This document shows, one piece after another, positions 21,768 through 61,721 of a DNA stretch of 64,000 bases. The position numbers were made by a program, and so were the translations under genes. The notes under the pieces were generated by a model, which did no database searches, was not told the DNA's origin, and saw nothing but the letters and a program-made list of their open reading frames with translations. The stretch is taken from positions 110,858,001 to 110,922,000 of the forward strand of contig NW_024704742.1 in assembly GCF_018977255.1 (NCBI RefSeq), in the 5' to 3' direction. Within the stretch, counting starts at the first letter, position 1, and each line of letters begins with the position of its first letter. This DNA is from Callorhinchus milii. Taxonomy: Eukaryota.

Positions 21768-22029
21768 ATGGGAAAGGTGAAGATTTTTGCAATAACCTAT
21801 GATGATTTTGTTGATAACATTGCCCCAATGTTCTCCAGTGGAGACTTCGTCTCTGGCCGGGTCACTGTGGAAGTGATTGAGGAAACTAAGCTGCAGTCTC
21901 TTACACTCCATGTGAGAGGAGAAGCCAAAGTCCACTGGACAGAATCAAATGGCACCAACTCCTCTACAAGTTACAGCAAAGAAGTGAAGTATTTTGACTA
22001 CAAAAACCTGTTATTAGGACAGGTAAGAG
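21768..22029 (+). CDS. ARRDC3-like: ARRDC3-like copy A, coding exon 1 (arrestin N-domain start)
   Basis: MGKVKIFAITYDD..PMFSSGDFVSGRVTVEV..LHVRGEAKVHWTES..EVKYFDYKNLLLG matches the ARRDC3 N-terminus (GKVK..SSGDTVSGRV..ARGHAKVRWTES..EVEYF). Phase-1 donor G|gtaagt at 22029/22030. Confidence 0.93.
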
Positions 22030-29896: not shown

Positions 29897-29975
29897 GTTA
29901 CAGGACTGAGAATGACTTAATCACTATACCTCCAGGCATAAATGAATACCCCTTCAGATTCATGCTTCCAAACAT
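29897..29975 (+). CDS. ARRDC3-like: ARRDC3-like copy A, exon 2
   Basis: ttcag|..TIPPGINEYPFRFMLPN..|gtaag; 79 nt, phase 1 to 2. Matches the G-x-x-E-Y-x-F-x-F-x-L-P arrestin motif. Confidence 0.9.
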
Positions 29976-30047
29976 GTAAGAGCTGCCTTTTGTTTTACTT
30001 TCCTATGATGTGCTTCTTAGATTATAATAAACTGTATTTATACTTTT

Positions 30048-31878: not shown

Positions 31879-32012
31879 TCTCATGATTAATTTGTTTTGA
31901 TGGAGAGTTGTAGGTTCGCAGACCTTTTCACGATCCAATTTTACGAGTTAGATAGTTCAAATTAAAATTGCATGTTACACACATCTTATAATGCCTTGTT
32001 TTATGCTAACAG

Positions 32013-32160
32013 ACTATTACCTGCTACAGTTAAAGGTGAATATGGTAATGTGAGTTACTGGGTGAAAGCCAAACTACACAGGCCAAGGAAGTTGACCATG
32101 AAAGTAAAAGAAGAATTTGCAGTTTTTGAACGCTTCATCAATTACAACCCATTGTGGATG
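32013..32160 (+). CDS. ARRDC3-like: ARRDC3-like copy A, exon 3
   Basis: aacag|LLPATVKGEYGNVSYWVKAKLHRPRKLTMKVKEEFAVFE..|gtaagt; 148 nt, phase 2 to 0. Confidence 0.93.
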
Positions 32161-32999: not shown

Positions 33000-33400
33000 C
33001 CATGCTTCCCAACTCTTCCTTCCAAAGCTACGGGTTATTCAGCACTCTGCAGCTTGTGTCCTCTCCCGTGCCAAGCTCCATGACCCTATCAGCTCCAACC
33101 TCACCTGGCTCCAGAGGATCAAGTTTAAAATCCTCATCCTCACTTTTAAAGCCCTCCCAACTCTGTGGCCTACTAGCATCATACCAACCTGTCTGCTCCC
33201 TCTACTCGGCAGGCAGTGGTCTGCTTCATGTCCACCGCCCTGCCCTAATTCAGTGGTCGGGCCTTCAACTTTTCTGCCCCTATCTTTTGGAACTCCATCC
33301 GGGAATCTCTCCAACTAGCTGCTACTTCAAGGCCGGTCTCAAGACCTTCCTCTTTGACTGTGTCTTCAGCCATCTTCCCATCTCCCGACAACCCTCTTGA
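33000..33400 (+). mobile_element. Degenerate L2 3' fragment
   Basis: FKAGLKTFLFD-type peptides. Confidence 0.65.
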
Positions 33401-34205
33401 TTCCACCTTGAGCACCTTGGGAAGCTCACTGGCTCCCTGTACTAAGGCTGGATTCAAACTGGACTTTATCAGCTGCAGCCCAGGGCCCCAGATTTTGAGG
33501 GGCCCCCAAAAAAGCGCAAGTCGTGATGACTAGTGTGCAGCGGGAGCACTGCACAGATTCTGTAATGTTCTGACCTCCCTAGTGATTGAGATTTCTCAGG
33601 AAGTCAGAGCACTATTGCGCGTGTGCTAGAAGCACATGTTCAGCTTCTGACACATGCGCAAAAGCAATCGGCTCAGCCAATAGAAAACCAAGGTAAACGA
33701 CTTGAAACTCCACAACTGCTGGGACTATGAATCCCATGTTCCGGAGGGAGGTAAACATGATGATTACTAGCTGGTATGAAACCTTGGCTGTGGAAAATAT
33801 AGTGAAGTATCGAGGCCATTAACATAACAAACAACAAGAAGGTGGTGATCAAAATACTGAAACCTGTCGAAAAGAAGAGGAAGATAAAGATGATTGCTCA
33901 CTGACAGGTGGATGGTCCAATGAGAGTGCAGGATGTGTTAATGAACTGGCGGATGGTACAGTGGGAGCGTTTACTTGCTGTAGGTATTTGAACTGACTGT
34001 CCCCAAAACCACAACTTTAACAAACTGTGGCTGCAATTTTGATATCAAAAAATCATGAGTTTCTTACAGCCTTATTTATTTTCTATTTTTCTCTCATATT
34101 CCTTCTTAGTTTTTCTAAACTCCCTTTTTGCAGCATAAGTATCCTGAGTGACTGTCTCTCTGCCTTGATGAGGAACAAGAGTATTTCCTCTGATTTCTTT
34201 TACAG

Positions 34206-34308
34206 TTACCACAGGAAGCCACAAATGACAAAACTCTTTGTTGCTGGTGCTGTTCCTCAGGGCAAATATCACTCAGAGCTAAAATCGAGCAGATGGGCTA
34301 CATGCAAG
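34206..34308 (+). CDS. ARRDC3-like: ARRDC3-like copy A, exon 4
   Basis: Read by hand (not in the ORF track): tacag|LPQEATNDKTLCCWCCSSGQISLRAKIEQMGYMQG|gtgaca; 103 nt, phase 0 to 1. Matches ARRDC3 [31 protein letters not shown]. Confidence 0.9.
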
Positions 34309-36139
34309 GTGACATTTCTTGGTGTAAAGGATAAAATGTAAAGTTTATTTTTGCATTGGGTTTCTGTGCACTATGAATTGAAGCTGGCACAAAAGTAATC
34401 CGAAACAAACTGTTTGGTTGGAGGTTTGTAAAAATCTTTAAGAAGCAGTAAAATAAGTCAACAGGGTGGTTAAATGTAGCAAAATGAGATGTGATGAGAG
34501 TGTGTGGGAGCGCGGGGGGGTGGGGGTGAAGTAGTTATTCACATTGCAATTTGTTTGTTTACTTTTGGGTATTTCTGTCAATGTCCTGAGTTTTGCACAT
34601 TTGATATTGTTCCATTGGGAAAGTTCTTGCAGACAGGTTTTGTAGAAGCCTTAATGTCGTAAACTGGATCTGACAGCTTGGGGGTCTATTCAGACATAAA
34701 CAGATATGGAAAATCCAACTGTCAATTGAAGGCCTGTAGAAGGCTGTGGGCCACACCCAGAAAACAAAACCTGCACAACAGTTTTAACAAATGTTTCTTT
34801 AAAAAAAAACTCTACCTTTTTACATCAAGATTCTTCTGAGGAGCCCCTTGTTTTATATTGGTGGTCAATTATTACTTAGGCATGGTGCCCAATTATATTA
34901 TTATGCCCAATTCCACTTAGGGCTAGAACGCTAAACAAACTTGATTGGAGCCCAGTCCTTGTTAGCTCCCTTGATTGTGGCATCCTTTTATACATGAAAA
35001 AGTATGTGCTCCTTCACATGTAGCTTGAGCACCAATAACCATAAAAATCAGTGACAAGACCAAACACAATTTTCTTACATGATATCAGGTCACATTATGG
35101 GATGATGATCATAAACATCAAATTAAAACAAACAGATATTAAACAGGTTTATACATAATACAGGAAACAGGCTTCTTTGTTCGCAAGCAAAGGCTATTCC
35201 CAATTACCTTCTAACTAGCTTCAAATCTGGTGAGGATTGCTGCCCAATGACTCCTTCTGGAAAGAGGGCATGCCGATGTCAGGAAAGGATGTGAGCATGA
35301 TTGATTTTTGATAAGTTAGCAGAAAGCTGCTGGAGTCTACTGATCTGTACCAATTTTGAGCTGCGTTCAGATAATGAGGGTGTCCCACATCAGCCATAAA
35401 GGAAACGTTAATTTTTTTTATGTGGAGGATGGTTGACTTTGACACTTGGAGAAACTCCCTTCTCTTTTCGAATAGAGTCTTAGAATCTTTAACATCCACC
35501 TGAACATGCAGACATAACCTTGGTTTATCGTCTCATCCAAAGGATATCAATGCTTTCTACAATGCAATCAATCTACAATGCTCCAGCACTGCATTGGATT
35601 GTGAGCCTAGACCATAAACTCAAAGTTCTGACATGGGGCTTGAAACCACAACTTTCTCACTCAAAGGTGAGAAAGTTAACAAGTGATCCAGGCTGACAGC
35701 AATTTTTTACAAATATCTTTCATTAAAACAATAGTTTAACAAGTGCAAATTAAAGCTCTATATAACACCAACACCACAGTAGTTACTTTTGAGTGGAGGA
35801 ATAAGGTGCCATCAAGAGATATTTTTGTATCTTTTTATTGCAGATTATGAGAATAATTTTAAGATAAGGTTGTATTAGAACAGAGGTATCTGCCCTTTTT
35901 ACTATCTGCTTCTTACTATAAAACAATTAGTATTTCAAAACTGTTAGAAAACTTTCTTAATAACTGCAAACAAAGGGCATTTTTCTTTGGCATGCATTAG
36001 GTTGGCACAACTCCAAAGAGGAACAATATAAGCATCTGAGGAGAAAAAAAATTAAGGGATGTAGGAAATTACTGTTAATAAAACAAAAAGGAACTCAGCA
36101 AAATAGGCACAGAGCGAATGGAACGAATAATAATCCTTA

Positions 36140-36490
36140 TATAATATAATAATCCTTGCATTTAATATAACAACAACAATTTGGGATTATATAGCGCCCT
36201 CCACACACGGATGGTGTCTCAGAGTGCTTTTCATGTTTTCTAGACGTCTCAAAGCGCTTAAAGTGAATTGACTGTATATTTGTGGGCGAAACACAGAAGC
36301 CAATTGTGCACAGCAGTGTCCCACAAACAGTCGTGGATTGAGTGACCAATTTATTATTTTTTTTTCCTGAAGGATTATTATCAGGGGTGTGGAGTAAGGA
36401 AACTTGCCCAAGTTTTGCTCTGCTGGGAATCGAACCCAGGTCTCTCGCTTGCAAGGCGAGTGCTCTAACTACTGAGCTACAGGACTCCAC
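36140..36490 (-). mobile_element. SINE with a ~55-nt L2 family-B tail inserted at about 36170-36223
   Basis: Family match; the insert matches the 3' end of 60257-60964. Confidence 0.82.
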
Positions 36491-36759
36491 AAATGGACTC
36501 CAAGAAAGGCCCTGTTCTGTGGTGACAGTTTCTTTGGAGTAATATTTACAGTAGCTTTTTAATCCATTCTATGTATTAATTTAACACAATGAATGGGTTA
36601 TAAGGAATATCTGAAAAATTGTAGCTATTATAATTTGTGCCTCTGTTCCTTAATCAAGAGGTAATTAAGACTTGCCTATATTCAGAGCACTGTTCCTGGC
36701 TGCTGCTCCCACTCAGACTGCTCTTTCTGGTCAGCTGAATTCTTGTAATTGTATAAGGA

Positions 36760-37135
36760 GTTTTGCCTTAGAGTCATAAGATTGTGGGTTCATGCCCCAC
36801 ATTGAGACTTTGAGCTCAGAGTCTAGGCTAACACTCCAATTATTTCTGGAGAGTGCCACATTATGAGAGCTGTGGTCCTTCAGATGAAATGTTAAACTGA
36901 CATCCCGTCTGCCTAGTCAGATGTCTTTTAAGATCCCATTAAGAAAGAGAAAGGATTTTTTCCCGGTGTCCTTGCCAACAATTCCCCTTATTAAAAAAAA
37001 TGGTCAATAATGTCAAGGCTGTTTGTGGGACATTGTTTTGTGCAAACTGCACACATTTGCCGACAAATACATGGAAACTTTGTGAAGTGCTTTAAAAGAT
37101 TTTCAATGCCGTAGACCTTACATCAAATGCAAACA
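36760..37135 (+). mobile_element. Ancient Deu-domain SINE (SacSINE1/AmnSINE1-like); other copies near 35380-35700(-), 58085-58430, 18125-18270 and 10155-10240
   Basis: cttcagatgaaatgttaaactga..ccgtctgcc..aagatccca..cccggtgtccttgccaa matches the Deu core as recalled. Confidence 0.65.
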
Positions 37136-37715
37136 TCATTATTGGATGGTTTAAAAGTTGTAAGCACAGTTGATAAGACTTTTTTTTCCTCAAGTGATTT
37201 AGTTATTATTTTTAAATATAAATTTAGCTTATCTAATTATTGTTTTAATTTTCTCCCTGCTGGCCACTGCCTCTTTGCTCCTGGTCTGGCTTCTGTTACT
37301 GAGGTAAAGTTCCCCGAGTGCTGATTGTCTTCTGGTACCCTGCCAAATGGGCAATGCTCACATGTGAGTCTTGGCAGTGAATGCTGGCAGGTCATTTGAC
37401 TGTATATGGCATCGCAGCCAAGCCCGATCTCCCCAACCAACTACATATATGTGCACAATTAGTAGCGGGACCAGGAACCTTGGCTTGTTTTCCCCGAGGA
37501 AAATCAGGGATAATTTATCCTCTCTAAGAGGTCCCAGCTGATCAGTAAACTCAGCATGGACTGGGATTTGAACTAGCGAGCTCCTGTTCCATAAATTGGC
37601 GATATTTAACTTGGTGGTTGTTTTAAAATATGATGGTTACAAAGTGTTTGTAATACACAAAATAATTAAAATGTGAGGAGTTTTTTTCAATGTTTTTTTT
37701 CCTCTCATCCTACAG

Positions 37716-37972
37716 GTGAAGTAATTCAAATATTTGCCGAATTTGAGAATATTTCTTCTCGTACAGTGATACCAAATGCAGTCATTAACCAAATACAGAC
37801 TTTCATTACCAATAGGAAAAGTAAAATAGTATCAAAAATTGTAGCCAGACTGCAAGGAGACCCATTGCTGCCGGGAGCAACAGAAAGATGGAACGGAAAA
37901 GTTCTGCAAATTCCAACTTCACCTCCCTCTTACCTCAGCTGCAGTATAATCACCATAGAGTACATATTGATG
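37716..37972 (+). CDS. ARRDC3-like: ARRDC3-like copy A, exon 5 (arrestin C-domain)
   Basis: tacag|GEVIQIFAEFENISSRTVIP..WNGKVLQIP..CSIITIEYILM|gtaggc; 257 nt, phase 1 to 0. Confidence 0.93.
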
Positions 37973-38344
37973 GTAGGCTGCTTTCTTGCATTATTGGTTT
38001 GCATTCTGATGTTGTGGAAAGGCAGCAACAACAACCAAAATAAATATTTAGCACATCATGGAGCCTTCAAATTCTACACCACTAATCTCAGGAATTCTCT
38101 CCCTCTACCACTGCAGCTCACCGTATCTCGATTTTGTCTTTTAAGTTCTGCTTCAAAATGTACCTCTTCAACATATGGTCATTTCCCCCTCCCACCTCTC
38201 TCCTGCTCAGCATCTGCCCAGACTTTATAAAGTGCTCTGGGATGTTATCTGTGAAGTCCTGTAGCTTAGTGGTTAGAGCACCCGCAATTTGCCCACAAAT
38301 ATACAGTCAATTCACTTTACAGTATATTCTGTGAATTTGTGATT

Positions 38345-39010
38345 TGAACTCGCGTGTGAGGATCTTGAAATCAATCCGTTTGGTGATGGGGAGCCAGTGG
38401 AGCCTGGTCAGAACTGGTGAGATGTGGGTAAGCAGTTGCTCGGGTGTGCAGGCGGCAGAGTTCTGAATGATCTGGATCTTGTGATGGTAGAGTTGGGGAG
38501 ACCGGCGAGGAGTGCGTTGGAGTAATCCAAGCAGGAGGTGATAAACGCATGCTTGACAGCTTTGGCTGCATTTGGGGTAAGATACAATCGGAGGCGGGCA
38601 ATGTGGCAGAGGTGGAAGAAGGCAGTCCTGGTCAGGGACTGGATGTGGGGGATGAAGGACAGTTGGGAGTGGAACCGGACGCTTAGGTTTCACACTGGTT
38701 CAGTGAGTCTGAGGGAGAGCCCAGGGCCGTTGAAGAGTTTAGATCCGCAAGAGTGAAGACGTTGACAGGAGCCAAGGAGTATGGCTTCCATCCTGTCCTT
38801 ATTCAGCTGCAGCAAGTTTACACTCATCCAGGTCTTGATGTCTGCCAGACAAGCTGATAGATCATCGGCAGACTTGGAGTCACAGCTGGAGGAGGCAAAG
38901 TAGATTTGTGCGCCATCCGCATGCATGTGGAAGTTTACCCCGTGTCTGCAGATGGACAAACCATCCAAGTGTGGTCCCACTAAGGTAGATGAGGGAACGC
39001 TCAGGAGCAC
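38345..39010 (-). mobile_element. L2 RT fragment
   Basis: HMHADGAQIY; LHWLPITKRIDFKIL. Confidence 0.8.
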
Positions 39011-40005
39011 TTTACAGAGACTGTGCCAGAAACCAAGCAGGGAGGGTGGGAGAGGAGGAAAGTGCTCAAAGGCACAGTCAAAAAGCTAGGTGGGGTTTGA
39101 AGACATAAAGAGATGGGGTGAGATGGAGTCCGCTTATGGAGCAATTTCTAGAGGGTCAGGTTATAGTGGCTGTATGAACTCATTTAAAATTTCTGTATAT
39201 ATGCTTTTTTCCTGTTGTGAAAATGATTCTCCCCCTTCTCCAAATCATACATACCCCTTTCCTGCCACAAAGGTGTGAAGATAACCTGTTCCTAATCCAA
39301 TGCCTCTTTGTAACTTGCTTGTTTTTTCGTTTTTATGGAGATGTCACTATCTTCTCTGAAGTTTCACTACAAGTGATGAAATATATCATGGGGTAAAATT
39401 TGCAGCATTCCTTAACTTATTTAACAAATGTTTTAGGGTTTTTAAAGGTAATTGTGGTGGCTTCCTTTTGGCTCAGGTAAATATCAACTATGTATAAGCC
39501 ATTGAAATCAGGAAAGACAGGCCAATCCTAGCAATGTCCTGATGGATTGTAAAATTTGGTATCAATATCCTCAGATTTGGTAAAGGAAGAGAATATAACT
39601 TGATAGGGCTTCCACTCATTGTGACTTTTTTTCCTATACGTGTGTGTTTTGGACTTTGAGTAAGGAAGATCTCAGGTCTGGCTATGACAGATAGTTTGAA
39701 GCACTCTGGGATACTACCTCATGGGTAAAGCACTATATAAATGTAAGTTGTTATTGACTCGTTCACTGGCTGCAATGTTGGAACAACCCATTGACAAGAA
39801 TAGTGATGACACCCAAAGAACAATAATTAATTGGGTGAAGTACTGAAGAGTCTCTCACACTTGAGGAATTGTAACCTCTCATAACAGCCATGTCTTCAAT
39901 AGAGGAGCAAATAAAGGAGCAAAGTGAGAAAATGTTGTAAGGGTGGAGGAACATTCTCTGCCTTGTAATGGTGACAAATTGTAATACTTGCTTGTTTCAT
40001 TTTAG

Positions 40006-40116
40006 GTTTACCTATTTATCCCTTCAGCAATAGATTTGAAGGTTAATTTGCCACTTGTTATCAGTTCGGTCCCGTTATATCCTTTCAACAACAGTGGGGG
40101 CCAGCAGCCAATGTGA
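40006..40116 (+). CDS. ARRDC3-like: ARRDC3-like copy A, exon 6 coding part with early stop; total ORF 960 nt (319 aa)
   Basis: tttag|VYLFIPSAIDLKVNLPLVISSVPLYPFNNSGGQQPM*; TGA at 40114-40116. The ancestral donor GAAG|gtaaga is retained at 40163. Confidence 0.88.
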   Translation, partial: VYLFIPSAIDLKVNLPLVISSVPLYPFNNSGGQQPM

Positions 40117-42559
40117 TATTAACAGGAACTGGCTGTTCCTCACACTGACACAAACACCTGAAGGTAAGAACTGCTTCTGGCAAAAACATCCATTACAGAA
40201 CACTTAAGCTTTTCAGTATTAGAGTAAGATTTAATGTCATTAATGAAATGAAAGTGACCCACTTCATTGAATGTAGTGGCTGTAACTTATATCCTAGAGA
40301 TAGCAAAGTACTGGCTGACCCTGTTAGCAAAAGATCACACGATTGGCTTAGATGAATAAGACCCTTTGGCCCATCTGATCTCAACCATCTTTTTATCTGC
40401 TAAAGCAGATAAAAAGCTGCTTTTTAAATGAGTCCAGTGTCCTGGCCTCAACCACCATTTGTGGCAACATGTTCTAGTTGTTAACTACCCTCTGAGTGAA
40501 GAAAAGCTTCTGGTATCTATTGCAAAATTGCGCTTTGCAACTCTAAACATAATGTGCTTCAGTGTAGCGCTAGCGCCAGATTACAGCATGACCAGCCAGG
40601 TGATACACCTCTGGTTTCCAGCTTTTAAATGCTGCCAATGTCACTTCCTGTGCAATCTACATACATGCTATGTACAGGAAGGGCTGCACCATATTAATGT
40701 AGGGTCTGAGATTACACACCTAAACCACCATGTCACAACAGGGTCGGTCTGTATTTGATATATTTATTAAATCTGCTACTTGGATAGATAAGGAACCAGT
40801 TAAACATATTTGTTGAATATTTAATTTCTGGCAATGATTGTCAATGATGATGACTTTACCAGGTGTTGGGATAATCCTTTGTTAAATTTTGACACCTGCA
40901 GCGTTCTGAGACTTTTCAATTTCAAAGTAAATTTAATTGTAAATTTTAGCTGCCCAAGAGACTAGTAAACTAACTTATATTTTTGTTAAATATTTATTTT
41001 CTAGACTTGATCTGTGAAAAAGTGGAAAATGATTTTGCTGGCACTGAAATAACTTCTTGTCAAAGAAAAAAACAATTTCTACTGAACCTTCTTAATTCTC
41101 CCCAAGGCCTTGTCATCTTTCCTTAAGTAGGGCACCCAGAACTGGGCACAATATGCCAAACCATGGCCAAACCAATGATTTACAATGTTGTGAGTCCTTG
41201 GGAAGTACCATATTTCTTGCAATCTCAAACTGCAGGAGAAACCAGGGATAAGGAGATGGTTCGCCTTTTGTCCTTCTACATACTGCAGATTCAAGCAAAG
41301 ATATCTTCTTTCATTTGACTGTGGCCTTTTTGAGAATCCTGCCAAAGTGGTGTAGTCCTCTAAAGTTTTATCAGACCATCTGCTTTATATTTCTTTGGAA
41401 GAGTTGGAAGAGATTCTGTAGTACCAGTGATGTCAAATACCTTCCTCTTCAAAAATAAATGCAACAGATTCCTTGGAGGCAACAGATTTTGGTTTTTGGA
41501 TAGAACCAAAGTTTCATTTAGATTTATATAGATTTTTGACTATAAAGGTGTGAATAATGGAAATGCCTAAAGCCAACTGAAAACAATGTGACCCTCATTG
41601 CAGTGTCCCGAGGTGAGGCCAATGTTTAGAAGCCAAAACAGCATTTCCGCAGCTGTTTGAAAAGTTATTGATTTAGCAAAGTCATAATTTTGTAAAGTGA
41701 CCACGAGAGGCTGAGATCCGGAATCCATTAAGCTGCTGAAAAAAGTAAATGATCCAATCAGTGTTTTGGTTGTAGACTGGAGATTGCTATATTTGTACTT
41801 CACAGCCACCATATTTGTATGCTGTATTTGTCTGAAATCTTACCTGATTGGGCCCAGCAGCACAGATTCACTGAAAGCAGCCTCACTAGATGGTAATCCA
41901 AGATGGCAACTCACACCATCTTCAGCCAGTTTGGGCATGACAGTTATTCAACAATCATGTGGAGGGGAATATTTCAATGCACATTTTAACATTTCTTAAT
42001 TAGGAAATAGAATGTATTTAGGACTACCGCGTTTGCTTATAATATTTAACAATGTAGCTACAATTGTGCAATTAATTTTGCTAAGGGATATAGGAAACTG
42101 GGTTTAATAATAAAAAGGTGATAACAGAGGTTGCAATGGTGCAGACATGATGAGCCAAATGTAACCTTTCAGTGCTGGAAATTTCTGTTTCGATCACGTT
42201 TTGCTCTTCATTATGTCTTATTAATAAATTGAAACTCCCAATTCTCAAACATTCCCAGTTTGAAATGTTTCAAGCTGACTTCCAATCCATTCACAGCAAT
42301 GCATCCAACTTGATCATAGTCAGCAATGGCATTCTGTCTGTCTGCGACTGGGTCTTGCTGTTTTTCCTTGTCCACAAGACCTCTCTGTAATCATTGATAC
42401 TGTCATCCATTTCATTCTCCTAAATCATCTCTTCTCTTTGGTCCACTTCTATGGCACTCATTTTGATTTGCATTATTAACTTAATGCCTCCATGCTGTCT
42501 AATCCCACAGTTTCACATCCTGTGCCCATATTATCACTTTTGCTGTACCCCATTGCTGT

Positions 42560-44204: not shown

Positions 44205-44572
44205 CATATCGACTTCAAGATCCTCACCCTTGTCTTCAAACACCTCCACTCCTCTGCACGCCCTTACCTCTCTCCTCACAACAGTGCCCATTGCCTTCGC
44301 TTCACCAGGTCTGGCCTCCTCTTTGTCCCCTGAATCCTCCTCTCCACCATCGGTGACCGTGCCTTCAGTCACTATGCCCCGAGGATCTGGAACTCCCTTC
44401 CTCACTCCCTTCGCCTCACCCCCTCTCTTCCTATTTTCAGGTCTCGGCTTTTCGACCGCGCCTTTGGTCACCTTCCTTCCCCTCCCTCGGCCCCGGGATT
44501 CGTTACTGTGAAGTGCTCTGAGACACTGTCCAGCGTGGAGGGTGCTATATAAATTCAAGCTGTTGTTGTTGC
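44205..44572 (+). mobile_element. L2 3' fragment (family B tail)
   Basis: Tail gagacactgtccagcgtggagggtgctatat..(tgt)n; same family as 60257-60964. Confidence 0.8.
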
Positions 44573-46586
44573 TGCATATCAGGACAAATAAATAAATAGA
44601 GATTACAGAAGACTAGATTTTATATGAAAATATATTATTAAAACAGATTCATGGTGAGTTACAGATGTAAAATTTAAGGATTGTGTAGTTCACTTTTGCT
44701 TGCCTCTTCAAAGTGCAGAAGAAATAGCCATGGCAGTCTTAATTATACATATTTTTGCAGAAAAACAATAACAACTTACATTTATATAGCGTCCTTCGGG
44801 TAGTGTCCCGGAGCGCTTGATAGTGGTGGAGTCTGACCCCACCTGTTTCATAATAAACAAAATTATCATACTTCAAAAATCATACATTCAAAAATATCTG
44901 GATTTTTTTTCAAGAAACTATTTGAACTAATTCTCAATAAATTCTAATATCATTTCATATGATATCTTCACTGATGCGATCTTCTTAGGCTGGTTTCATT
45001 GACCTGGTTGAATGCACTGTTACCACCCATCATATGAATGTGGGCTCCCACCACATTCTGATCAACATCACCAATGTGACAATGTCCTGCACCATCTTTA
45101 TTGATGCCATTTTGCTGGGGTAACTTGCTGTGAAGGAGAGTTGTTCTACATTACACATTAGTTGCTGCAGACCCTTTCATGATCCAGTTTTGCAAGTCAA
45201 CTTAACATTGTGTTGCCCTTTGCTCACCTTGCCTGTTTTTTTCTCCTCACAGACTCTGCCTAACTCCTTTGAAGTCATATTTGGCAGTGTTACAGGGTAA
45301 AAACAACCACACAAGCAATTGGACATGGTGAAGGAACAGTATACAGCCTTTGAGATTATTAACATTAACACTCCATTGCTGGTGGTAAGTACATAGAAAG
45401 GTTAGAGTGCAAATTATCATTTCAATAAATTGGCCAATCCTAAAGTTATCCAACATTTTTTTAAGGGGGTCAGACCGATGTCTTGACTGAAGCATTGAAT
45501 GCAGTGTGTGGCAAATTCCTGTTTCTTGTCACGCATGGATCTGTTAGGGCTTTGACAGAGTGGGTTATCCTTGCCCTCAGATACCTCCAGTGAATAGGCT
45601 GGCTGAGCTATTATCAGAAATGCCCTGGAGTACTGCAGCCTCACCTGCCTCAGGAACCAGACATTCAAGATTGCAACAAAGGATACACTCAAAGCTGATA
45701 TTCCGTTGCCAAGCATGCCTGTCACCCTGGAGCCAGCTCAGCTCCAAGGAAACCCTGCTTACCTCCCCAAAAAAGAAAAGTCACTAGTTGGTCTTTTAAC
45801 AATTGACAAACACAGGTTTGAGTCCTCACCAGGTTGGTAACAGGAATCAGGAACTGGGTATTCTTGATGGACTTCTAGATTTCATAACTTATAAAATCCT
45901 TTCATGAAATACTGCAAATTATACCGCTGTTTAGAGTGGAAAAAGGATGTCCTCCCAACGTGAAAGATGCATTACATAAATGAAATTTGTTGTTGTTACC
46001 TATTGAATCATGTGTTTTTCAAAACATTTTACAAAGTATATCACCATGATTATATGGTAAATATGTTATTGTAGAAGAAATAATGAGTTAAAACAGTTCC
46101 TTAAAATACAGATTTATATAAAGGCATAATAAAGATTTTGACATTAAAGTTCATTAAAGGAACACTATATTGTGGGATGCTGTTATGAACATAAGATATC
46201 AATTGTCATTGTGGTTCGTTCTACCAGTTGCTGTTATTGTTCCATATTATTGTCCCTTTGTATTATTTGGATACGCAAAATTGATTTGGATCAGAGTCAT
46301 TGATTTTTGATTCATATATCCAGGGTTTTGTATCTGCCTTTAATGGTGTACAGCAGCTGCTGCAAACTGGGAGATCAAGAGCTCAATAGGTATGTGCGTG
46401 TGTATGTGTGTGGATGTGGTTTGTGGGCAGAAGGATGGCGATAACGCTCATGCATTTCCTACTGAGTTGTGCTATTCACTACGAGGCTATCCACCTAGTG
46501 AGAGCTCAAACCTACACTTGTCAAGTGTTGAATGTCCAACAAATGGCAACTTCTGTGGGGGATGGGGTTAAGGATCGTGGCTACTC

Positions 46587-50881: not shown

Positions 50882-51152
50882 ATGGGAAAGGTGAAGGTTT
50901 TTGCAATAATCTACGATGGTTTTATTGACAACATTGCCCCCATGTTCACCAGTGGAGATTTAGTCTCTGGACGGGTTATTATGGAACTTTCTGATGAAAT
51001 CAAGGTGAAATCTCTTAAGATCCATGCCAAAGGTCATGCCAAAGTCAGCTGGACAGTAAGGAAAAAGAAAGGCTCCAAGACCCACAGTAGAGTTTACCAC
51101 CAAGAAGTGGAATATTTGAATCACAAAGAAGTGTTAATCGGACATGGAGTAG
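50882..51152 (+). CDS. ARRDC3-like: ARRDC3-like copy B, exon 1
   Basis: MGKVKVFAIIYDG..SGDLVSGRVIMELSDEIKVKSLKIHAKGHAKVSWT..EVEYLNHKEVLIGHG; donor G|gtaagt, phase 1. Confidence 0.92.
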
Positions 51153-51213
51153 GTAAGTTATAATTTTTGTGGGTCACCTGGATGTCTGACACATGTGGAA
51201 ACTCGTCACCGTG

Positions 51214-53718: not shown

Positions 53719-53794
53719 GTGACTTCACTGAAGATGTCACAACTATGCGTCCTGGCAGATATGAGTACCACTTCAGATTCATGCTTCCACAGGC
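53719..53794 (+). CDS. ARRDC3-like: ARRDC3-like copy B, exon 2
   Basis: tttag|DFTEDVTTMRPGRYEYHFRFMLPQ|gtaaga; 76 nt, phase 1 to 2. Flanking intron is homologous to copy A. Confidence 0.88.
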
Positions 53795-55154: not shown

Positions 55155-55302
55155 ACCATTACCTGCTACATTTAAAGGCTTATATGGCAAAGTGGAATAC
55201 ACGGTAGAAGCTAAACTAAACAGGCCATGGAAGCTGAGCTTCAGCGTGGAACAACCTTTGCCAGTTTTTGAACGCATTGATATTAACCATCCACTGCTTC
55301 TG
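55155..55302 (+). CDS. ARRDC3-like: ARRDC3-like copy B, exon 3
   Basis: aacag|PLPATFKGLYGKVEYTVEAKLNRPWKL..VFERIDINHPLLL|gtaagt; 148 nt. Confidence 0.92.
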
Positions 55303-55689
55303 GTAAGTGAATGGGAAAGTGCAGAATGGAAAAGGTAACTGTGGATATTCTATGCTAAATATAGCACCTGCTGAATTCACTCTTCAAATTGCTGACACAG
55401 TCTGCTTCAGTGCTTTCCTTGATTATCCCTACCACATATTCACAAGATCACAAGATAAGTTCAGAAGGCCGTTTGTTCCTTTTCATTTTCATTTAATTGA
55501 TCATTCACTCCATGGCTGTTTGCTATGCGCAAATTGGCTGCTATGTTCACCCACAAAAATCTTAGTTGCTCCACTTTACATTATATCTTGCGAAGAGCTT
55601 TGGGATACCCTCCTGATGTGAAAGGCACTATATCAAACGCAAGAATTATTATCTTTCCAGAAAAAAAAACCTTACTATCTTTACATCAC

Positions 55690-56420
55690 AGCACCAATGT
55701 TTTTTTAAGTGTGTCCAGGATCCTGGCAACCTGCTCCAGGTTTCAGTTACCCTTTGGGTAAGGATATACTTCCTGGTTTCTGTTATGAAATTGCCCTTTG
55801 CAACTGTAAACATACGTCTCCCTCCTTTTATCCTTCTGTAGCAGTCTTCAAGTCCCATCTTAAAACTTAGTATTTTCAATTATGCATGTTTGTCTTGTTT
55901 ATTGCTACCTCACATTATTATAATAAGGAGAACAATGAGTCACACCTAGACATTTTTCAGCTTCCCCCTTGGCAACTTCTATCCCATTCATAGAGTACAT
56001 GTGATCCCTATTTAACTTCCTTCATGAAGTACTTTGCATTTATCTATATTAAATTTTATTTGCTGGTTATTGGCCATGTGTATATCCTATCAAATTCTCT
56101 TTGCAAGCCCTTTGCTCAAGTGCAAACCCTCTAATGTCCAGTGCCTTGGGACGCCCTTCCAATGTGAAAGGAGCTATATAAATGCAATTTGTTGCTGTTA
56201 TTTGCTGCTTCCTCGTATTCCACAGTTCTCCCCTACTTAGTGTCATCTGCAAATTTAATTACCTTACATTGTGTCTATAAATCCAGGTAATTCAAAGAAC
56301 AAGAGGGGTCCCAGCGTAGACTCCCGAGTACCCCCATTTAATCTTTCTCCACATTTTGACCAGGTCACAAATCCAAACTGTTTGCTTACCTGCTTTGTCC
56401 TGAGCTTGATTCTGTGCCAT
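55690..56420 (-). mobile_element. Decayed CR1 fragments
   Basis: tttgcagatgacactaag (FADDTK) on the minus strand; TQRVTETWSRLP. Confidence 0.55.
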
Positions 56421-56422
56421 TT

Positions 56423-57970
56423 ACAACAACAAAATTATATTTATAGAGTGCCTTTCAAGTCGGGAGGACGTCCTAAAGTGCTGAACAGTCAGATGTCGGG
56501 GCCCGAGCATGGGGGAGGGGTGCTGTAAGGTTGAGGGAAGGCAAAGAGGTGGGAGGAAGACCAAAGGCACGGTCGAAGAGAAGGGTCTTGAGACCGGCCT
56601 TGAAGGATGCTAGGGAGGAAGCGAGGTGAAGGGACTGCGGGATGGAGTTCCAGAGTGTGGGGGCAGAGAGGCTGAAAGCCTGGCCACCGATGGTAGGGCG
56701 GGTCGGGCGGGAGGTATGGAGCAGGCCGGAGCCTGATGAACTTAGGGAGTGGCAGGTTGGTAGGGAGTCAGCAGGTCAGAGAGGTAGGAAGGGGCAAGGC
56801 AATGGATGGCCTTAAAGGTGAGGACGAGGATCTTGAACTCGATTCTCTGGGGGATGGGGAGCCAGTAGAGTCGGGCGAGGGTGGGAGTGATGAGGTCACG
56901 GAGCCTGGTGCGTGAGAATACACGAGCTGCAGAGTTTTGGATGATCTGCAGCTTGTGAAGAGTCGGGAAGGCCGATGAGGAGGGAGTTCCCGTAATCGAG
57001 CCTTGATGTGACAAATGTATGGGTGAGGGTTTCGGCAGCCTGAGGGGTGAGGCAGTGGCGGTGTCCGGCAATATTGCGGAAGTGGTGGTAGGCAGTGTCG
57101 GTCATGGTACGGATGTGGGGGAGAAAGAACAGTTCAAGTTCATTAAAGATATCGAGGTTCCTGACTGGCTCAGTGAGGTTGAGTGTGCAGCCATGGAAGC
57201 TGATGCTGCCAGCGCCTGAGGTGCAGAGGCGCTGGCGCGAGCCACTCAGGAGGGCCTCGGTCTTGCTGACGTTGAGTTGGAGAAAGTTGGCCCTCCTCCA
57301 GGACTTGATGTCGGACAGGCAGTCGGTCAGGACGCCAGTAGTCCTGGAATTCAGGGTGGAGGCAGAGAGGTAGAGTTTGGTGTCATCCACATACCTGCGG
57401 AAACTTACCCCATGTTTGTGGATGACGTCACCAAGGGGGAGCATGTAGAGGGTGAAAAGGAGTGGACAAAGTCCTGAGGAACACCGCACGAGACGGTGCG
57501 GGGGCTGGAGGGGAAACCGTTTGCCACAACGAAGTGGATGCGGTGTGAAAGGTAGGACCTGAACCAGGCAAGGACAGAACCTTGAAGGTTAAGGTGGGAG
57601 GAGAGGGGTTGGAGGAGGATTGAGTGGTCCACGGTGTTAAAGGTGCCGGAGAGTTCGAGGAGGACGAGGAGGCAAATGGAGCCCTGGTCACACATGGCCA
57701 GGATGTCGTTTATGACCTTGACCAGAGCAGTTTCTGTGCTGCACGGTAACCCGATTGGAGGGGTTCGTGGAGGGAGTGAGAGGAGAGGAAAGAGTGAAGC
57801 TAGAAGGCAACAGCTCTCTCAATGACCTTGGATAGGAAAGAGATTTGAAATGGGCTGGTAGCTCGATAGTTGTGAGGGTCAAGGGAAGGCTTTTTCAAGG
57901 TGAGTGTGATCGGGGCTGTTTCGAGGGGGGAAGCAACAGTGCCAGATGACACGGAGAGGTTAATGATGTT
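56423..57970 (-). mobile_element. 5'-truncated L2 at the position where exon 4 of copy B is expected
   Basis: RT peptides [36 protein letters not shown]; (TGT)n tail. Confidence 0.88.
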
Positions 57971-59348
57971 GTGATAATTTACTTGTGATAATTGGTTTCA
58001 CTGTGTGTGCATGCAGTCAGCCAGAAATATTTACACTGAATTCTGTGCACCATGAATTGAATTGAAGGGGCAAAGTAGATATCAAGCTGGCTTTGTTTGA
58101 TAGCACTGTTGCCTCTGAGTCAAAAGATTATGGGTTCAAGTGCCAAGACATTGAGCTCATAATCTAAGGTGACATTACAAAGCAGTGTCAGGTGAGAACT
58201 GAGTTGTCAGTATCAAATTATCAACTGGTACTGTTTTTCCCAATGTCATGACCAATAATCTCCCAGAAAAAAATTGTAATTCACTTCTTTGCTGTTAGTG
58301 GGACACTGCTGTGGCAAATTGGGTGCTGCAATCCCTTATAAGTACACAGTCACTACATTTTACAAAAACCCACAAAGGTCTTTGGGAGGCTTCAATGTTA
58401 TAAGACGTTATATCAAATGCAAGGATTATTTTATTGAAAAATATGAAAGGAATAGACAAATAAGATGCACTGTATTTGTAAAAACCTTTAAAAAGCATCT
58501 AAGTGTATCAACAAGGTAGTCAAACATAGCAAAAGTAAACAACAAAATTGCATTGTTTACTTTTGGGAATCATTAGATCAGTTTGCATAATGAACAGTTT
58601 GCATGATGATGGTTACCCATCAACATCCTATTATAACATCAAGCTATTTCTAAAACGAGTCCAGCATCCTGACCTCAACGGTCCTTTCACATAATCTGTT
58701 CCAGTCATTAGATACCCATTGGTAAAAAAAATGCATTCTGGTGTTGATCTGAAACTGCTCTTTGTTACTCTGAAGCTGAATCCTGATATTTCTGAAAGTA
58801 CCGTTTGGGGTTTATTCACTCAATCTCATATAAAACCTTATATACTTTTCTAAAGTCCCTTCTGAGATATCTCTTTTCAAGGCTGAAAAGCCATAACTTA
58901 TCTCATTGTTGCTCATGGCTGTTTCTTCTAACATTCTTTTGGTCATCTTATTTATGGGACATTGCTTTGCACAAATTGGCTGCCACATTCACTTACAAAT
59001 ACAGATTGCAATTCACAGAAATTTCGCAAAGCGCTTTGAAACCCTCTGGATGTTATAGGTGCTATATCAGATGAAATTATATTATTATTATTAATATACA
59101 GTTTTGTAATGTTACATAAAAGTAACAACTTTACCACAAGCCTGTTTTAGATAATCATTGATAATTGACTCCTATCAGGTTAGAGCACAAATATTACAAA
59201 TCACTGAGCAACACTTAATGCAGTTTGATTGATATTATTTTTAAATTAAATGGAATTTATTAATGTTCTATTTAATTTGTTGTTTTAAATATATTTTTAT
59301 TGGCAATACACAAAATAATTACAATGCTTTTTTTCTCCCCTGCTAAAG

Positions 59349-59605
59349 GTGAAGAAATTCAAATATTTGCTGAATTTGAGAATGGTTCCTCCCGTGAGGT
59401 AGTGCCAAAGGCAGTCATTCATCAAACCCAAACTTTCTTTGCCCAAGGGAAGAGCAGGAAAATACAAGAAACAATAGCCAAAATAGATGGAGAACCAGTG
59501 GCTCCAGGACAAACAGGAAAGTGGATTGGAAAAGGCATGCTTATTCCAACTCTGCCTCCCTCTTACCTCAGCTGCAGAATAATCACTATGGAGTACACAT
59601 TGATG
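59349..59605 (+). CDS. ARRDC3-like: ARRDC3-like copy B, exon 5 homolog
   Basis: taaag|GEEIQIFAEFENGSSREVVPKAVIHQTQTF..CRIITMEYTLM|gtaagc; 257 nt, open in the ancestral frame. Confidence 0.9.
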
Positions 59606-60044: not shown

Positions 60045-60164
60045 GTGTACCTATCGATCCCTTTAGCATTAAATCTAAAGGTTAATTTGCCACTAGTTAT
60101 CGGTACGATCGCCTTACATCCTTCATACTACAGTGGTGGTGAGCAACCAGAGATGTTAGCATGA
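60045..60164 (+). CDS. ARRDC3-like: ARRDC3-like copy B, exon 6 homolog with early stop
   Basis: tttag|VYLSIPLALNLKVNLPLVIGTIALHPSYYSGGEQPEMLA*; TGA at 60162-60164; ancestral donor at 60200. Confidence 0.86.
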   Translation: MYLSIPLALNLKVNLPLVIGTIALHPSYYSGGEQPEMLA

Positions 60165-60256
60165 ACTGGTTGTGCCTCGCACTGTCGGAAAGACCTGAAG
60201 GTAAATAACTGCCTCTGACAAAAAATACCATTACAGAAAACTAAGCCTTCAATATT

Positions 60257-60964
60257 TGGAGGTCAGGTTCGACTCCCAATTATTCTTCCTCCCCCACATC
60301 CGGTCCCTCACCAGCACCGCTTTCTTCCACCTCCAACGCATCGCCCGTCTTCGCCTATACCTCTCCCCAAAAGCCGCTGAAACTCTGGTCCATGCCTTTG
60401 TCAACTCCCAGCTGGACTATTCAAATGCCCTCCTCGCCGGCCTCCCCTCCACTACCATCCATAAAATCCAACTCATTCAGAACTCTGCCGCTCGCATTCT
60501 TACCGCATGAAACTCCGCTCCCCGATCACCCCAGTCCTTGCCAGACTGCACTGGCTTCCTATCCCAGAGAGGATCGATTTCAAGATCCTCACCCTCGTAT
60601 TCAAGTCCCTGCACTCCTCTGCACACCCCTATCTATCTGACCTCCTCTCTCCTCAGCACAGTACCCATTGCCTTTGTTCCTCCGGGTCTGGCCTCCTCCT
60701 TGTCCCCCGAGTCCTCCGCTCCACCCTCGGCGGCCGTGCCTTCAGCCACTATGCCCCGAGGCTCTGGAACTGCCTTCCTCACTCCCTTTGTCTCACTCCC
60801 TCCCTTCCCATTTTCAGGTCTACGCTGAAGACCTTTCTTTTCGACCGCGCCTTTGGTCACCTTCCCACCCCTCCCCCTGGCTCGATCCCGGGATCAGTTA
60901 CTGTAAAGCGCTCTCAGACGCTGTCCAGTGTGGAGGGCGCTATATAAATCCAAGTTGCTGTTGT
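60257..60964 (+). mobile_element. L2 3' fragment (family B), inserted after the gene duplication
   Basis: RT C-terminal ORFs; flanked by tatt. The empty site is visible in copy A at about 40216-40230. Confidence 0.88.
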
Positions 60965-61721
60965 TATTAGAGTAAGATTTAATGTCATTAATGAGATAAA
61001 AGTGACCCACTTCATTGAACATAGTAGCTGCAGCAACACAGCTCAGTACCTCTCTTCTCTCATACAAACAAGTCTCTCCCACTCCTCCTTCTTTTCCAAA
61101 TCAGACGAATGGGAGTGATTGTGCTTCATTGTACAATAGTGAGCTGTATTAGCACAGTCAGTTTTATTTGTTCAAAGTTATTGACAGCTCATGTTCTAGG
61201 CTGACACTAGACTATTTTTTAACAACTCAGATTGACATTAAAGTAGATCAAACATAGCACAAGACTTTGACCATTATCTGTTCGATAAAGGGGATAAATT
61301 AACAATGTTTTAAATGTTCAATGTGATAATTATGGCCATGTAATAATTGTGTTTAACAACAAATGACATATAGGTGGCAGCACCCATCTCCTGCAGAGTA
61401 GTCTCTCCTCTCTTTCACACTGAGATCAACCCCATCTTGAATTTCAAGCCAAGTAAATGTAACTGTAAACTTTAGCTCCTAAAGAGACTTGTAACATAGT
61501 TTGTTTAATATTCATTTTCTCGGTTTGATCTGTCATTTTGTCCTCTCCCTTCATTTTATTTGATAATAATCTTAACCATATGCCAGTTAGTCACTGATTC
61601 ACCAAGCAATTGAAATACTTATTTATCATATCAAAACCTTTTGAACACTTCTATTATGTCTCTCAATCTTATTTTTTTCTAGCAAATACAATCCCCAATT
61701 ACTACTGAATGTTCTCTATAT

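What the first reader, a model, noticed from the sequence alone, without database searches (positions are those of the whole stretch)
40006..40163. Tail-less alpha-arrestins: a shared exon-6 frameshift removes the PPxY (NEDD4-recruiting) tail from both ARRDC3-like paralogs
Seen: copy A reads ..PLYPF-NNSGGQQPM* and copy B (60045-60200) reads ..ALHPS-YYSGGEQPEMLA*. In a shifted frame the ancestral tail is still legible (A: SSQCDINRNWLFLTLTQTPE|gt; B: SMNWLCLALSERPE|gt; human as recalled: SSQCSMNMNWLSLSLPERPE). Both copies have 16 nt between the PF/PS codons and the SS/SN codons where ARRDC3 has 21 nt, so one ~5-nt deletion predates the duplication; B lost 2 nt more. Exon lengths are 158 and 156 versus 163. 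Coding exons stayed open afterwards (exon 5 only ~59% identical in protein yet no stops), and the new frame SGG[QE]QP is kept in both. Established: ARRDC proteins use C-terminal PPxY motifs to bring NEDD4-family HECT ligases to GPCRs and transporters. Inference: this is a lineage-specific subfamily of complete two-domain arrestins that could bind cargo without the canonical ligase tail, acting as decoys or re-purposed adaptors. The stops lie 47 and 36 nt upstream of the old donor, inside the ~50-nt window that escapes NMD at that junction.
Basis: partly seen in the sequence, partly recalled or inferred. Interest (0 to 1): 0.8.

Follow-up and report, generated by a model that had tools for sequence, protein, structure and literature searches.

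The report
Truncated tail-less ARRDC3-like genes, elephant shark
Two neighbouring copies of the trafficking adaptor gene ARRDC3 in the elephant shark do carry the reported frameshift, but they belong to an old shark-and-ray-wide gene family that had already lost its ligase-recruiting tail, so the frameshift only trims a shorter, family-specific end.

Summary
Exon 6 of copy A (40006-40163, 158 nt) and of copy B (60045-60200, 156 nt) stops early in frame 0, and the ARRDC3-type ending is legible in a shifted frame. The canonical Callorhinchus milii ARRDC3 lies about 21 kb downstream of copy B on the same strand and has a 163-nt exon 6. A and B share a 5-nt gap at the same place.

The causal reading does not hold. 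No exon 7/8 (PPxY) sequence lies downstream of either copy. In the tree, A and B group (100/99) with 18 elasmobranch 'ARRDC3-like' proteins of 324-365 aa. None of these 18 has a PPxY motif. They keep the exon-6 frame, and most end in a conserved ...GFQT after apparently reading into former intron 6. The tail was therefore most likely lost once, before chimaeras and sharks split. The C. milii frameshift is a later trimming just behind the complete Arrestin_C domain.

Exons 1-5 stayed open (A-B dN/dS 0.64, bootstrap 0.47-0.91), so constraint was relaxed but real. Copy B lacks exon 4 in this assembly. Both copies carry a derived internal PPSY in a C-domain loop. Expression could not be tested. 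Moderately interesting: a new variant of a known kind.

The parts
21768..22029 (+). Copy A exon 1 (ATG at 21768, 262 nt, ends in phase 1, donor GTAAGT)
   Evidence: tblastn; boundaries
29897..29975 (+). Copy A exon 2 (79 nt)
32013..32160 (+). Copy A exon 3 (148 nt, same length as canonical)
34206..34308 (+). Copy A exon 4 (103 nt, same length as canonical)
37716..37972 (+). Copy A exon 5 (257 nt); holds the derived internal PPSY codons at 37922-37933
40006..40163 (+). Copy A exon 6 (158 nt; canonical 163). The end of Arrestin_C is encoded up to about 40074. The 5-nt gap against canonical falls near 40090/40091. Frame-0 stop is at 40114-40116. The predicted product is 319 aa.
40100..40207 (+). 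Relic of the older reading frame in copy A: SSQCDINRNWLFLTLTQTPE, then read-through of the donor as GKNCFWQKHPLQNT, TAA at 40205-40207. Compare shark ...PEGKSDFLFTNQNLGFQT*.
   Evidence: read directly
40209..40285 (+). Non-coding block downstream of exon 6. It is 86% identical between A and B (66/77), more than the exons, and is partly shared with canonical intron 6 (CACTTCATTGAA...).
   Evidence: no Rfam family
50882..51152 (+). Copy B exon 1 (271 nt)
53719..53794 (+). Copy B exon 2 (76 nt)
55155..55302 (+). Copy B exon 3 (148 nt)
55303..59348 (+). Copy B intron in which exon 4 should lie. Exon 4 is present in the UniRef models P0001 and P0002, but it is found neither in the window nor anywhere in this assembly. 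Without it, exon 3 to exon 5 is out of frame.
59349..59605 (+). Copy B exon 5 (257 nt); internal PPSY codons at 59555-59566
60045..60200 (+). Copy B exon 6 (156 nt). It has the same 5-nt gap (near 60129/60130) plus a net 2 nt fewer (near 60149/60150). Frame-0 stop is at 60162-60164. The older frame reads SMNWLCLALSERPE, then GK, then TAA at 60206-60208.
60257..60964 (+). Repeat insertion that interrupts the block conserved between A and B downstream of exon 6. It is the source of the only weak proline-rich 'tail' hits.
60965..61030 (+). Copy B counterpart of the conserved non-coding block (92% identical to 40217-40282)

Best explanation
The window holds two tandem, same-strand ARRDC3-like genes of Callorhinchus milii: A (21768-40163) and B (50882-60200). 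The canonical ARRDC3 lies about 21 kb beyond copy B. A and B are the chimaera-lineage members of an old cartilaginous-fish paralogue clade, the short ARRDC3-like proteins. This clade has the full arrestin N and C domains but no exons 7-8 and no PPxY. In sharks and rays its translation appears to run through the former exon-6 donor and ends about 16 codons later in a conserved ...GFQT/GYYT. This read-through is inferred from the protein models alone. On this reading the ligase-recruiting tail was lost once, before the split of chimaeras and elasmobranchs, and not through the frameshift. Later, in the C. milii lineage and most parsimoniously before A and B duplicated, a 5-nt deletion just behind the end of the Arrestin_C domain shifted the frame. 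Copy A now ends after 319 residues, and both copies lack the clade's own roughly 45-50-residue tail. The arrestin fold itself stayed under relaxed purifying selection. Inferred, not shown: the products are PPxY-tail-less arrestin-fold proteins. They could bind ARRDC3-type partners without bringing NEDD4-family ligases through a tail, acting as competitors or as ligase-independent scaffolds. Copy B may be on its way to a pseudogene.
For: Identity and layout: the window's exons are 97-100% identical to C. milii UniRef proteins. The canonical gene lies at G000:C1:110939185-110954793, and the window is 110858001-110922000. Exon lengths are 262/79/148/103/257/158 for A, 271/76/148/-/257/156 for B and 280/82/148/103/257/163(/155) for canonical, with the same phases and GT-AG sites.

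No tail exons: 94 ARRDC tails were searched against the window and against the 21.3 kb between B and the canonical gene. They gave only proline-rich repeat hits (best E 1.5e-4, with an in-frame stop). The same search gave E 5e-31 on the canonical exon 7. In the whole genome, residues 344-398 match at only three places, none beside A or B.

Clade: 20 elasmobranch proteins of 324-365 aa from 15 named species and one unnamed record. Of these, 18 went into the tree and the motif scan. P0132 (an isoform) and P0136 (the unnamed record) were left out. 0 of 18 have [PL]PxY, against 2 motifs in each of 16 full-length ARRDC3/ARRDC2 rows. 18 of the 20 carry the terminal G[FY]x[TSA] motif.

Tree (35 rows, IQ-TREE PMSF): A+B 100/96; A+B with the short clade 100/99. 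AU tests reject A+B+C. milii ARRDC3 as one clade (p 0.0007) and reject A+B with all 10 canonical ARRDC3 rows (p 0.008). Copy A's old frame reads through the donor as GKNCF...T*, like shark GKSDF...T*.

Fold: Arrestin_N covers 15-152 and Arrestin_C covers 179-305 (profile 1-136 of 137) in P0028. TXNIP 4ll1 aligns to 3-303. The AlphaFold model is confident to about residue 303.

Selection: A-B dS 0.47, dN 0.30, ratio 0.64, bootstrap 0.47-0.91, with 0 of 1000 replicates at or above 1. Under neutral drift of 0.235 per site, 275 codons stay free of stops in 0.5% of 5000 simulations. All indels in exons 1-5 are multiples of 3.
Against: A and B are long branches (0.6 and 0.46), and the short clade also sits on a long stem, so attraction cannot be fully excluded. 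The groups for the AU tests were named after I had seen the tree.

That the elasmobranch tail is a read-through of the donor is inferred from protein models alone; I had no shark or ray DNA.

The part of exon 6 behind the frameshift is as conserved as the coding part (A-B 79%, A-C 71%, B-C 73%). Copy A's old frame is open to the shark-like stop. Both facts would also fit more recent, separate frameshifts.

Constraint is weak. The ratio is 0.64. Copy A has changed 8 of 36 and copy B 3 of 33 columns that are invariant in all other rows. The tail conserved in elasmobranchs is gone. Copy B has no exon 4 in this assembly.

No transcript evidence was obtained. Whether exons 7-8 were never copied or decayed later cannot be told, because neutral sequence between the copies is barely alignable. 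A-B homology does continue colinearly for more than 5 kb downstream.
Confidence: 0.72

Rival explanations
1. One reading: A and B were full-length ARRDC3 duplicates with PPxY exons, and the shared exon-6 frameshift is the event that removed the tail.
For: The frameshift is real and apparently shared. The old frame in exon 6 is more ARRDC3-like in A (SSQCDINRNWLFLTLTQTPE) than in the elasmobranch short proteins (STQYGMNANNLNYTLPAGPE). The exon-6 donors are intact. Homology with canonical intron 6 runs to about 15 nt before the exon-7 acceptor.
Against: No trace of exons 7/8 lies after either copy, with a positive control. The closest relatives keep the frame and still have no PPxY (0 of 18). 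The tree and AU tests place A/B with them. Copy A's old frame runs through the donor to a shark-like stop.
Confidence: 0.07
2. One or both copies are unprocessed pseudogenes, and the frameshift (plus the missing exon 4 in B) are disabling lesions of genes no longer needed.
For: The tail that is conserved across sharks and rays is lost. dN/dS is high at 0.64. 8 of 36 universally invariant columns are changed in A. Exon 4 of B is absent from the whole assembly, which puts exon 5 out of frame. Degenerate relics of further copies lie nearby.
Against: All splice sites are intact, and there is no stop or frameshift in exons 1-5 of A or in exons 1-3 and 5 of B. Such an open frame is expected in 0.5% of neutral simulations per lineage. 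The ratio is below 1 in 1000 of 1000 bootstraps. The lesion lies behind the end of the fold. Exon 4 of B exists in the UniRef models P0001 and P0002, so its absence here may be a polymorphism or an assembly gap.
Confidence: 0.25
3. The frameshifts are recent and arose separately in A and B (or spread by gene conversion). For most of their history both genes encoded the full short-clade tail.
For: The region behind the frameshift is conserved like coding sequence. Copy A's old frame is open for 34 codons to the shark-like stop. A and B differ in net shift, -5 against -7.
Against: A and B align without a gap through the whole 16-nt linker and share derived sequence there (ACAGTGGnGG), against 21 nt in canonical. 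The non-coding flanks are also conserved, 85-86%, so conservation need not mean translation. 34 open codons occur by chance about 20% of the time (my arithmetic). Copy B's old frame has a stop in the linker.
Confidence: 0.12
4. The frameshift is a sequencing or assembly error.
For: Short indels are a common assembly error.
Against: Two separate loci show it. Protein models made on other DNA show it too: P0001 contains an exon that this assembly lacks and ends in the same residues, and P0028 skips 40075-40105.
Confidence: 0.02

Closest known systems
Canonical vertebrate ARRDC3 (here the C. milii gene at G000:C1:110939185-110954793, and Pristis pectinata P0047)
   Same: Arrestin_N plus Arrestin_C. 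The same exon phases, and identical lengths of exons 3-5 (148/103/257). Same strand and neighbourhood. About 50-56% protein identity.
   Different: No exons 7-8 and so neither of the two tail PPxY motifs. The start is MGKV rather than MVLGKV. Exon 6 is 5 or 7 nt shorter and frameshifted. Evolution is fast: terminal branches are 0.46-0.6, against 0.015 for the canonical gene.
Elasmobranch 'arrestin domain-containing protein 3-like' proteins of 324-365 aa (e.g. Pristiophorus japonicus P0078, Carcharodon carcharias P0122, Amblyraja radiata P0131)
   Same: Same clade in the tree (100/99). MGKV start. No PPxY tail. Ends inside or just beyond exon 6.
   Different: They keep the exon-6 frame and a conserved C-terminus (...QYGMNY...LPEG...GFLxxNxNxG[FY]x[TS]). 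The C. milii copies lose this through the frameshift. The C. milii copies alone carry an internal PPSY.
ARRDC5
   Same: An alpha-arrestin without a PPxY motif. The Discussion of PMC10110545 (passage read) calls it the only family member lacking this feature and suggests a mechanism not based on HECT ligases.
   Different: It is a separate, older paralogue. The genes here are ARRDC3 derivatives: they fall in the ARRDC3 clade against an ARRDC2 outgroup at 100/100. ARRDC5 itself was not put into my tree.
C-tail-less arrestins such as the p44 splice form of visual arrestin and truncated beta-arrestins (recalled, from no call)
   Same: An arrestin fold whose regulatory C-terminal tail has been removed.
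   Different: There the tail docks on the N domain and its loss pre-activates the protein. No such docking is shown for alpha-arrestins, and the model of the shark protein gives a disordered tail (pLDDT under 30).

Membership tests
Alpha-arrestin (ARRDC) family | Arrestin_N and Arrestin_C domains in one chain | tested here: met
   Pfam on the copy A model P0028: PF00339 at 9.8e-27 (15-152) and PF02752 at 5.1e-24 (179-305, profile 1-136 of 137). Copy B model P0001: PF02752 at 9.8e-23, with the N domain partial in that model. TXNIP 4ll1 aligns to 3-303 at E 6e-52.
Alpha-arrestin (ARRDC) family | C-terminal tail with PPxY motifs that recruit NEDD4-family ligases | tested here: not met
   No tail exons. 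The only [PL]PxY is an internal PPSY at residue 267 (A) or 269 (B), inside the C domain.
Canonical ARRDC3 orthologue | Groups with ARRDC3 of other vertebrates; eight-exon gene whose exons 7-8 encode PPSY and PPxY | tested here: not met
   The tree places A+B outside the canonical group. AU rejects joining them, p 0.008. The true orthologue lies downstream.
Chondrichthyan short ARRDC3-like clade (named here; annotated only as 'ARRDC3-like') | Monophyly with the elasmobranch 324-365 aa proteins | tested here: met
   100/99 support. The alternatives are rejected at p 0.0007 and p 0.008. Caveat: long branches.
Chondrichthyan short ARRDC3-like clade (named here; annotated only as 'ARRDC3-like') | Conserved C-terminus ...G[FY]x[TS], read through the exon-6 donor | tested here: not met
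   Frame 0 stops 47 nt (A) and 36 nt (B) before the donor. Only a relic remains in the old frame: A reads GKNCFWQKHPLQNT*, B reads GK*.
Unprocessed pseudogene | Disabling lesions inside the conserved domains and a dN/dS near 1 | tested here: inconclusive
   Copy A has no lesion in the fold. The A-B ratio is 0.64 (0.47-0.91). Copy B has exon 4 missing in this assembly but present in UniRef models.
Unprocessed pseudogene | No expression | not testable with these tools
   No read data could be laid.

The most novel reading that the evidence does not exclude
Cartilaginous fishes have kept, for over 400 million years (a date from general knowledge), a fast-evolving ARRDC3 paralogue without PPxY, placed next to ARRDC3, which acts as a natural ligase-uncoupled competitor of it. 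The family duplicates repeatedly, and in the skate it has several alternative first coding exons. In the chimaera lineage it lost its own C-terminal peptide and gained a PPSY in a flexible loop of the C domain, which would move the ligase-docking site from the tail into the fold.
Probability: 0.1. Interest if true: 0.7.

Novelty: new variant of a known kind. Interest (0 to 1): 0.42.

Why it matters
ARRDC3 is studied as an adaptor that links receptors and transporters to HECT ligases through its tail. What it does without that tail is examined with engineered mutants. A natural ARRDC3-derived family without the tail, conserved across sharks, rays and a chimaera, offers a comparative handle on PPxY-independent functions of the arrestin fold. 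The conserved new C-terminus (...GFQT) is a candidate new motif. For genome annotation, the case shows that a 'frameshifted ARRDC3' in C. milii is a member of a separate family, not a broken ARRDC3. It also shows that the existing protein models of both copies (a skipped stretch in exon 6, odd first exons) are unreliable. Searches of the held literature found no paper on this family.

Tried and rejected
Transcript evidence. The run search for 39969-40300 listed 12 runs, but no RNA holder was listed. Expression, 3' ends, use of the old donors and the exon-4 question of copy B therefore all remain open.

Duplication breakpoint in intron 6. I first read the end of homology with the canonical gene at 40284/61030 as the edge of the duplicated unit. 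I rejected this because A and B stay colinear for more than 5 kb downstream, and because neutral sequence is too diverged for 'never copied' to be told from 'decayed'.

Alternative acceptor inside exon 6 (...caacaacag|TGG in A, ...tactacag|TGG in B). Read from the sequence, it would give frame +2 with early stops in both copies, so it does not rescue the old frame.

RNA family in the conserved block downstream of exon 6. There was only one sub-threshold hit (21 bits against a gathering score of 70, E 0.69).

Docking of the elasmobranch tail on the fold. The AlphaFold model of P0078 has mean pLDDT 62 and a tail under 30, which is uninformative.

Codon-position pattern in the old frame behind the frameshift. 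I counted it by hand for A against canonical (7/4/6 differences at positions 1/2/3). The sample is too small to tell translation from other constraint.

Earlier notes of this scan. There were none on this place or this sequence.

Full report
WHAT IS THERE

- 40006-40163 is a 158-nt exon with AG and GT flanks. Frame 0 ends ...PLYPFNNSGGQQPM*, and frame +1 reads ...SSQCDINRNWLFLTLTQTPE.
- 60045-60200 is a 156-nt exon. Frame 0 ends ...ALHPSYYSGGEQPEMLA*, and frame +2 reads ...SMNWLCLALSERPE.
- A protein search with the exon-5 reading frame of the second copy returned one protein, a Callorhinchus milii UniRef entry (P0001, 97% identical). The organism is therefore the elephant shark or something nearly identical to it.

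GENE MODELS

tblastn with a sawfish ARRDC3 (P0047), a sawshark ARRDC3-like protein (P0078) and a C. milii model (P0028) placed six exons for copy A and five for copy B on the + strand. I set the boundaries by splice sites and phase.
- Copy A: 21768-22029, 29897-29975, 32013-32160, 34206-34308, 37716-37972, 40006-40163. The product is 319 aa.
- Copy B: 50882-51152, 53719-53794, 55155-55302, 59349-59605, 60045-60200.
- All sites are GT-AG.
- P0028 turned out to be a model of copy A. It skips 40075-40105 to stay in frame and then runs into intron sequence.
- P0001 is a model of copy B and ends in the same ...YYSGGEQPEMLA.

THE CANONICAL GENE

The window's own genome could be searched. The window is G000:C1:110858001-110922000, and a canonical ARRDC3 lies at 110939185-110954793 on the same strand, about 21 kb beyond exon 6 of copy B.
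- Its exons 1-7 measure 280, 82, 148, 103, 257, 163 and 155 nt.
- Exon 6 reads ...HPFGSRTSSVSSQCSMNLNWLSLALPEIPE.
- Intron 6 is about 130 nt long.
- Exon 7 reads APPSYAEIV...PPPVYSE.
- In a three-way alignment, A and B have a 5-nt gap at the same columns. They align to each other without a gap through a 16-nt linker whose sequence they share but canonical does not. B lacks a net 2 nt more.

WHY THE FRAMESHIFT DID NOT REMOVE THE PPxY TAIL

First, there is nothing to remove.
- 94 ARRDC tails were searched against the whole window and against the 21.3 kb between copy B and the canonical gene. They gave only proline-rich hits in repeats (best E 1.5e-4 to 4.6e-4, with an in-frame stop).
- The same search found the canonical exon 7 at E 5e-31.
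- The genome-wide search matched tail residues 344-398 at three places only: the canonical gene and two other ARRDC genes on other contigs.

Second, the relatives lack the tail too.
- A search with P0078 listed, ahead of all canonical ARRDC3 proteins, 20 elasmobranch 'ARRDC3-like' proteins of 324-365 aa from 15 named shark, ray and skate species and one unnamed record.
- They keep the exon-6 frame. 18 of the 20 carry a conserved end...LPEGPEGKSDFLFTNQNLGFQT in sharks and ...EVxAGFxxNNKNxG[FY]Y[TS] in rays.
- The GK after PE is what the donor GGTAAG/GGTAAA encodes. Copy A's old frame reads through its donor as GKNCFWQKHPLQNT* (TAA 40205-40207), and copy B's reads GK*.
- I infer that the clade's tail is an exonised start of intron 6. 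I had no elasmobranch DNA to confirm it.
- 0 of the 18 short proteins scanned have a [PL]PxY. Each of the 16 full-length ARRDC3/ARRDC2 rows has two. P0132 and P0136 were left out of the scan and the tree as near-duplicates.

Third, the tree (35 rows, IQ-TREE with PMSF).
- A and B are sisters (100/96).
- Together they join the elasmobranch short clade (100/99).
- This group is apart from the chondrichthyan and bony-vertebrate canonical ARRDC3 groups, with ARRDC2 as outgroup.
- AU tests reject a C. milii-specific origin (A+B+canonical C. milii held together, p 0.0007). They also reject A+B with all ten canonical rows (p 0.008).
- Caveats: A and B are long branches, and I named the test groups after seeing the tree.

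The parsimonious history is one loss of the tail in the stem of cartilaginous fishes, followed by a later frameshift in the chimaera lineage. I cannot tell whether exons 7-8 were never part of the duplicate or decayed afterwards. Homology of A and B with the canonical gene fades about 15 nt before the exon-7 acceptor. However, A and B remain colinear with each other for more than 5 kb downstream, so that point is not a duplication boundary.

WHAT THE FRAMESHIFT DOES

- It lies just behind the fold. In P0028, Arrestin_C covers 179-305 (profile 1-136 of 137), TXNIP 4ll1 aligns to 3-303, and the AlphaFold model is confident to about residue 303.
- What is lost is the linker and the clade's own tail, about 45-50 residues, which are conserved between sharks and rays.
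- A model of the sawshark protein gave a disordered tail and no hint of its role.

ARE THE GENES ALIVE?

For:
- No stop or frame-breaking indel occurs in exons 1-5 of A, or in exons 1-3 and 5 of B.
- A-B dS is 0.47, dN is 0.30 and the ratio is 0.64 (bootstrap 0.47-0.91; 0 of 1000 replicates at or above 1).
- Differences by codon position are 78/56/87.
- With neutral drift of half that dS per lineage, 275 codons stay open in 0.5% of 5000 simulations.

Against:
- The ratio is high.
- Copy A has changed 8 of 36 and copy B 3 of 33 columns that are invariant in every other row.
- The tail conserved in elasmobranchs is gone.
- Exon 4 of copy B, which is present in P0001 and P0002, is found nowhere in this assembly. 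Without it, exon 5 is out of frame.

Open:
- The stretch of exon 6 behind the frameshift is as conserved as coding sequence (A-B 79%, A-C 71%, B-C 73%).
- The non-coding block 40209-40285 is even more conserved between A and B (86%, P about 5e-5 against the synonymous-site expectation).
- So either non-coding constraint acts here, or the frameshifts are younger than they look.
- No Rfam family matches.

EXPRESSION

Expression could not be examined. No RNA holder was listed for the stretch, and the single laying of reads gave nothing.

COMPARISON AND NOVELTY

- PPxY-less alpha-arrestins are known. The Discussion of PMC10110545 (passage read) calls ARRDC5 the only family member without the motif.
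- New here is that an ARRDC3-derived family without the tail exists across cartilaginous fishes, with its own conserved C-terminus, and that the elephant shark copies are secondarily truncated.
- Three searches of the held literature found nothing on it: 'ARRDC3' with 'elephant shark' gave two unrelated papers (listing only), and the other two gave none.
- The NCBI and UniRef names ('ARRDC3-like', 'arrestin domain containing 3a') do not set the family apart.

VERDICT

This is a new variant of a known kind, of moderate interest.

Noticed in passing
window 37922-37933 and 59555-59566: Both copies encode PPSY inside exon 5. The canonical protein has SPSI at this point and the elasmobranch short proteins have SPTL. 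It is the only [PL]PxY in either protein, and none of the 33 other rows scanned has a motif at this position. In the AlphaFold model of P0028 it lies in the loop 262-274 between two strands, where the mean pLDDT of residues 261-270 is 64. The 23 nt around it are identical in A and B.
   Followed up: partly
window 55303-59348: Exon 4 of copy B (about 34 codons, present in the UniRef models P0001 and P0002) is missing from the window and from the whole assembly. A LINE-like insertion lies in this intron (about 56420-57840). This could be a polymorphic deletion, or the assembly may have lost the exon.
   Followed up: partly
window 40209-40285 and 60965-61030: A non-coding block just past the old read-through stop is 86-92% identical between A and B, more than any exon (70-78%). 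Part of it (CACTTCATTGAA...GCTGTA) is shared with intron 6 of the canonical gene. No Rfam match. Its function is unknown; it may be a 3'UTR or a splicing element.
   Followed up: partly
window 25630-25741, 45256-45384 (and doubtfully 44561-44593): Degenerate relics of further ARRDC3-like exons. One is an exon-1 3' fragment inside intron 1 of copy A, 84% identical to copy B's exon 1 end. Another is an exon-3-like piece with a stop between A and B. The region downstream of B (beyond the window) is colinear with the region around the second piece.
   Followed up: partly
proteins P0131, P0132, P0134, P0135 (Amblyraja radiata, not in the window): Four annotated isoforms of the skate short ARRDC3-like gene differ only within residues 3-82 (18-28 differences) and are identical afterwards. 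This suggests several alternative first coding exons spliced to shared exons 2-6.
   Followed up: no
proteins P0001, P0002, P0028 against window 54191-54304, 54569-54682, 41108-41248: The public protein models of both copies contain first or last 'exons' that lie in repeats or in intron sequence. The copy A model also joins 40074 to 40106 to stay in frame. These models should not be used as they stand.
   Followed up: partly
G000:C21:8330766-8347868 and G000:C26:2972239-2977095: Two further ARRDC genes of this genome with tail matches (residues 344-398), probably ARRDC2/ARRDC4/TXNIP-type. C21 may hold two genes in tandem, since there are first-exon matches at 8337653 and 8347626.
   Followed up: no
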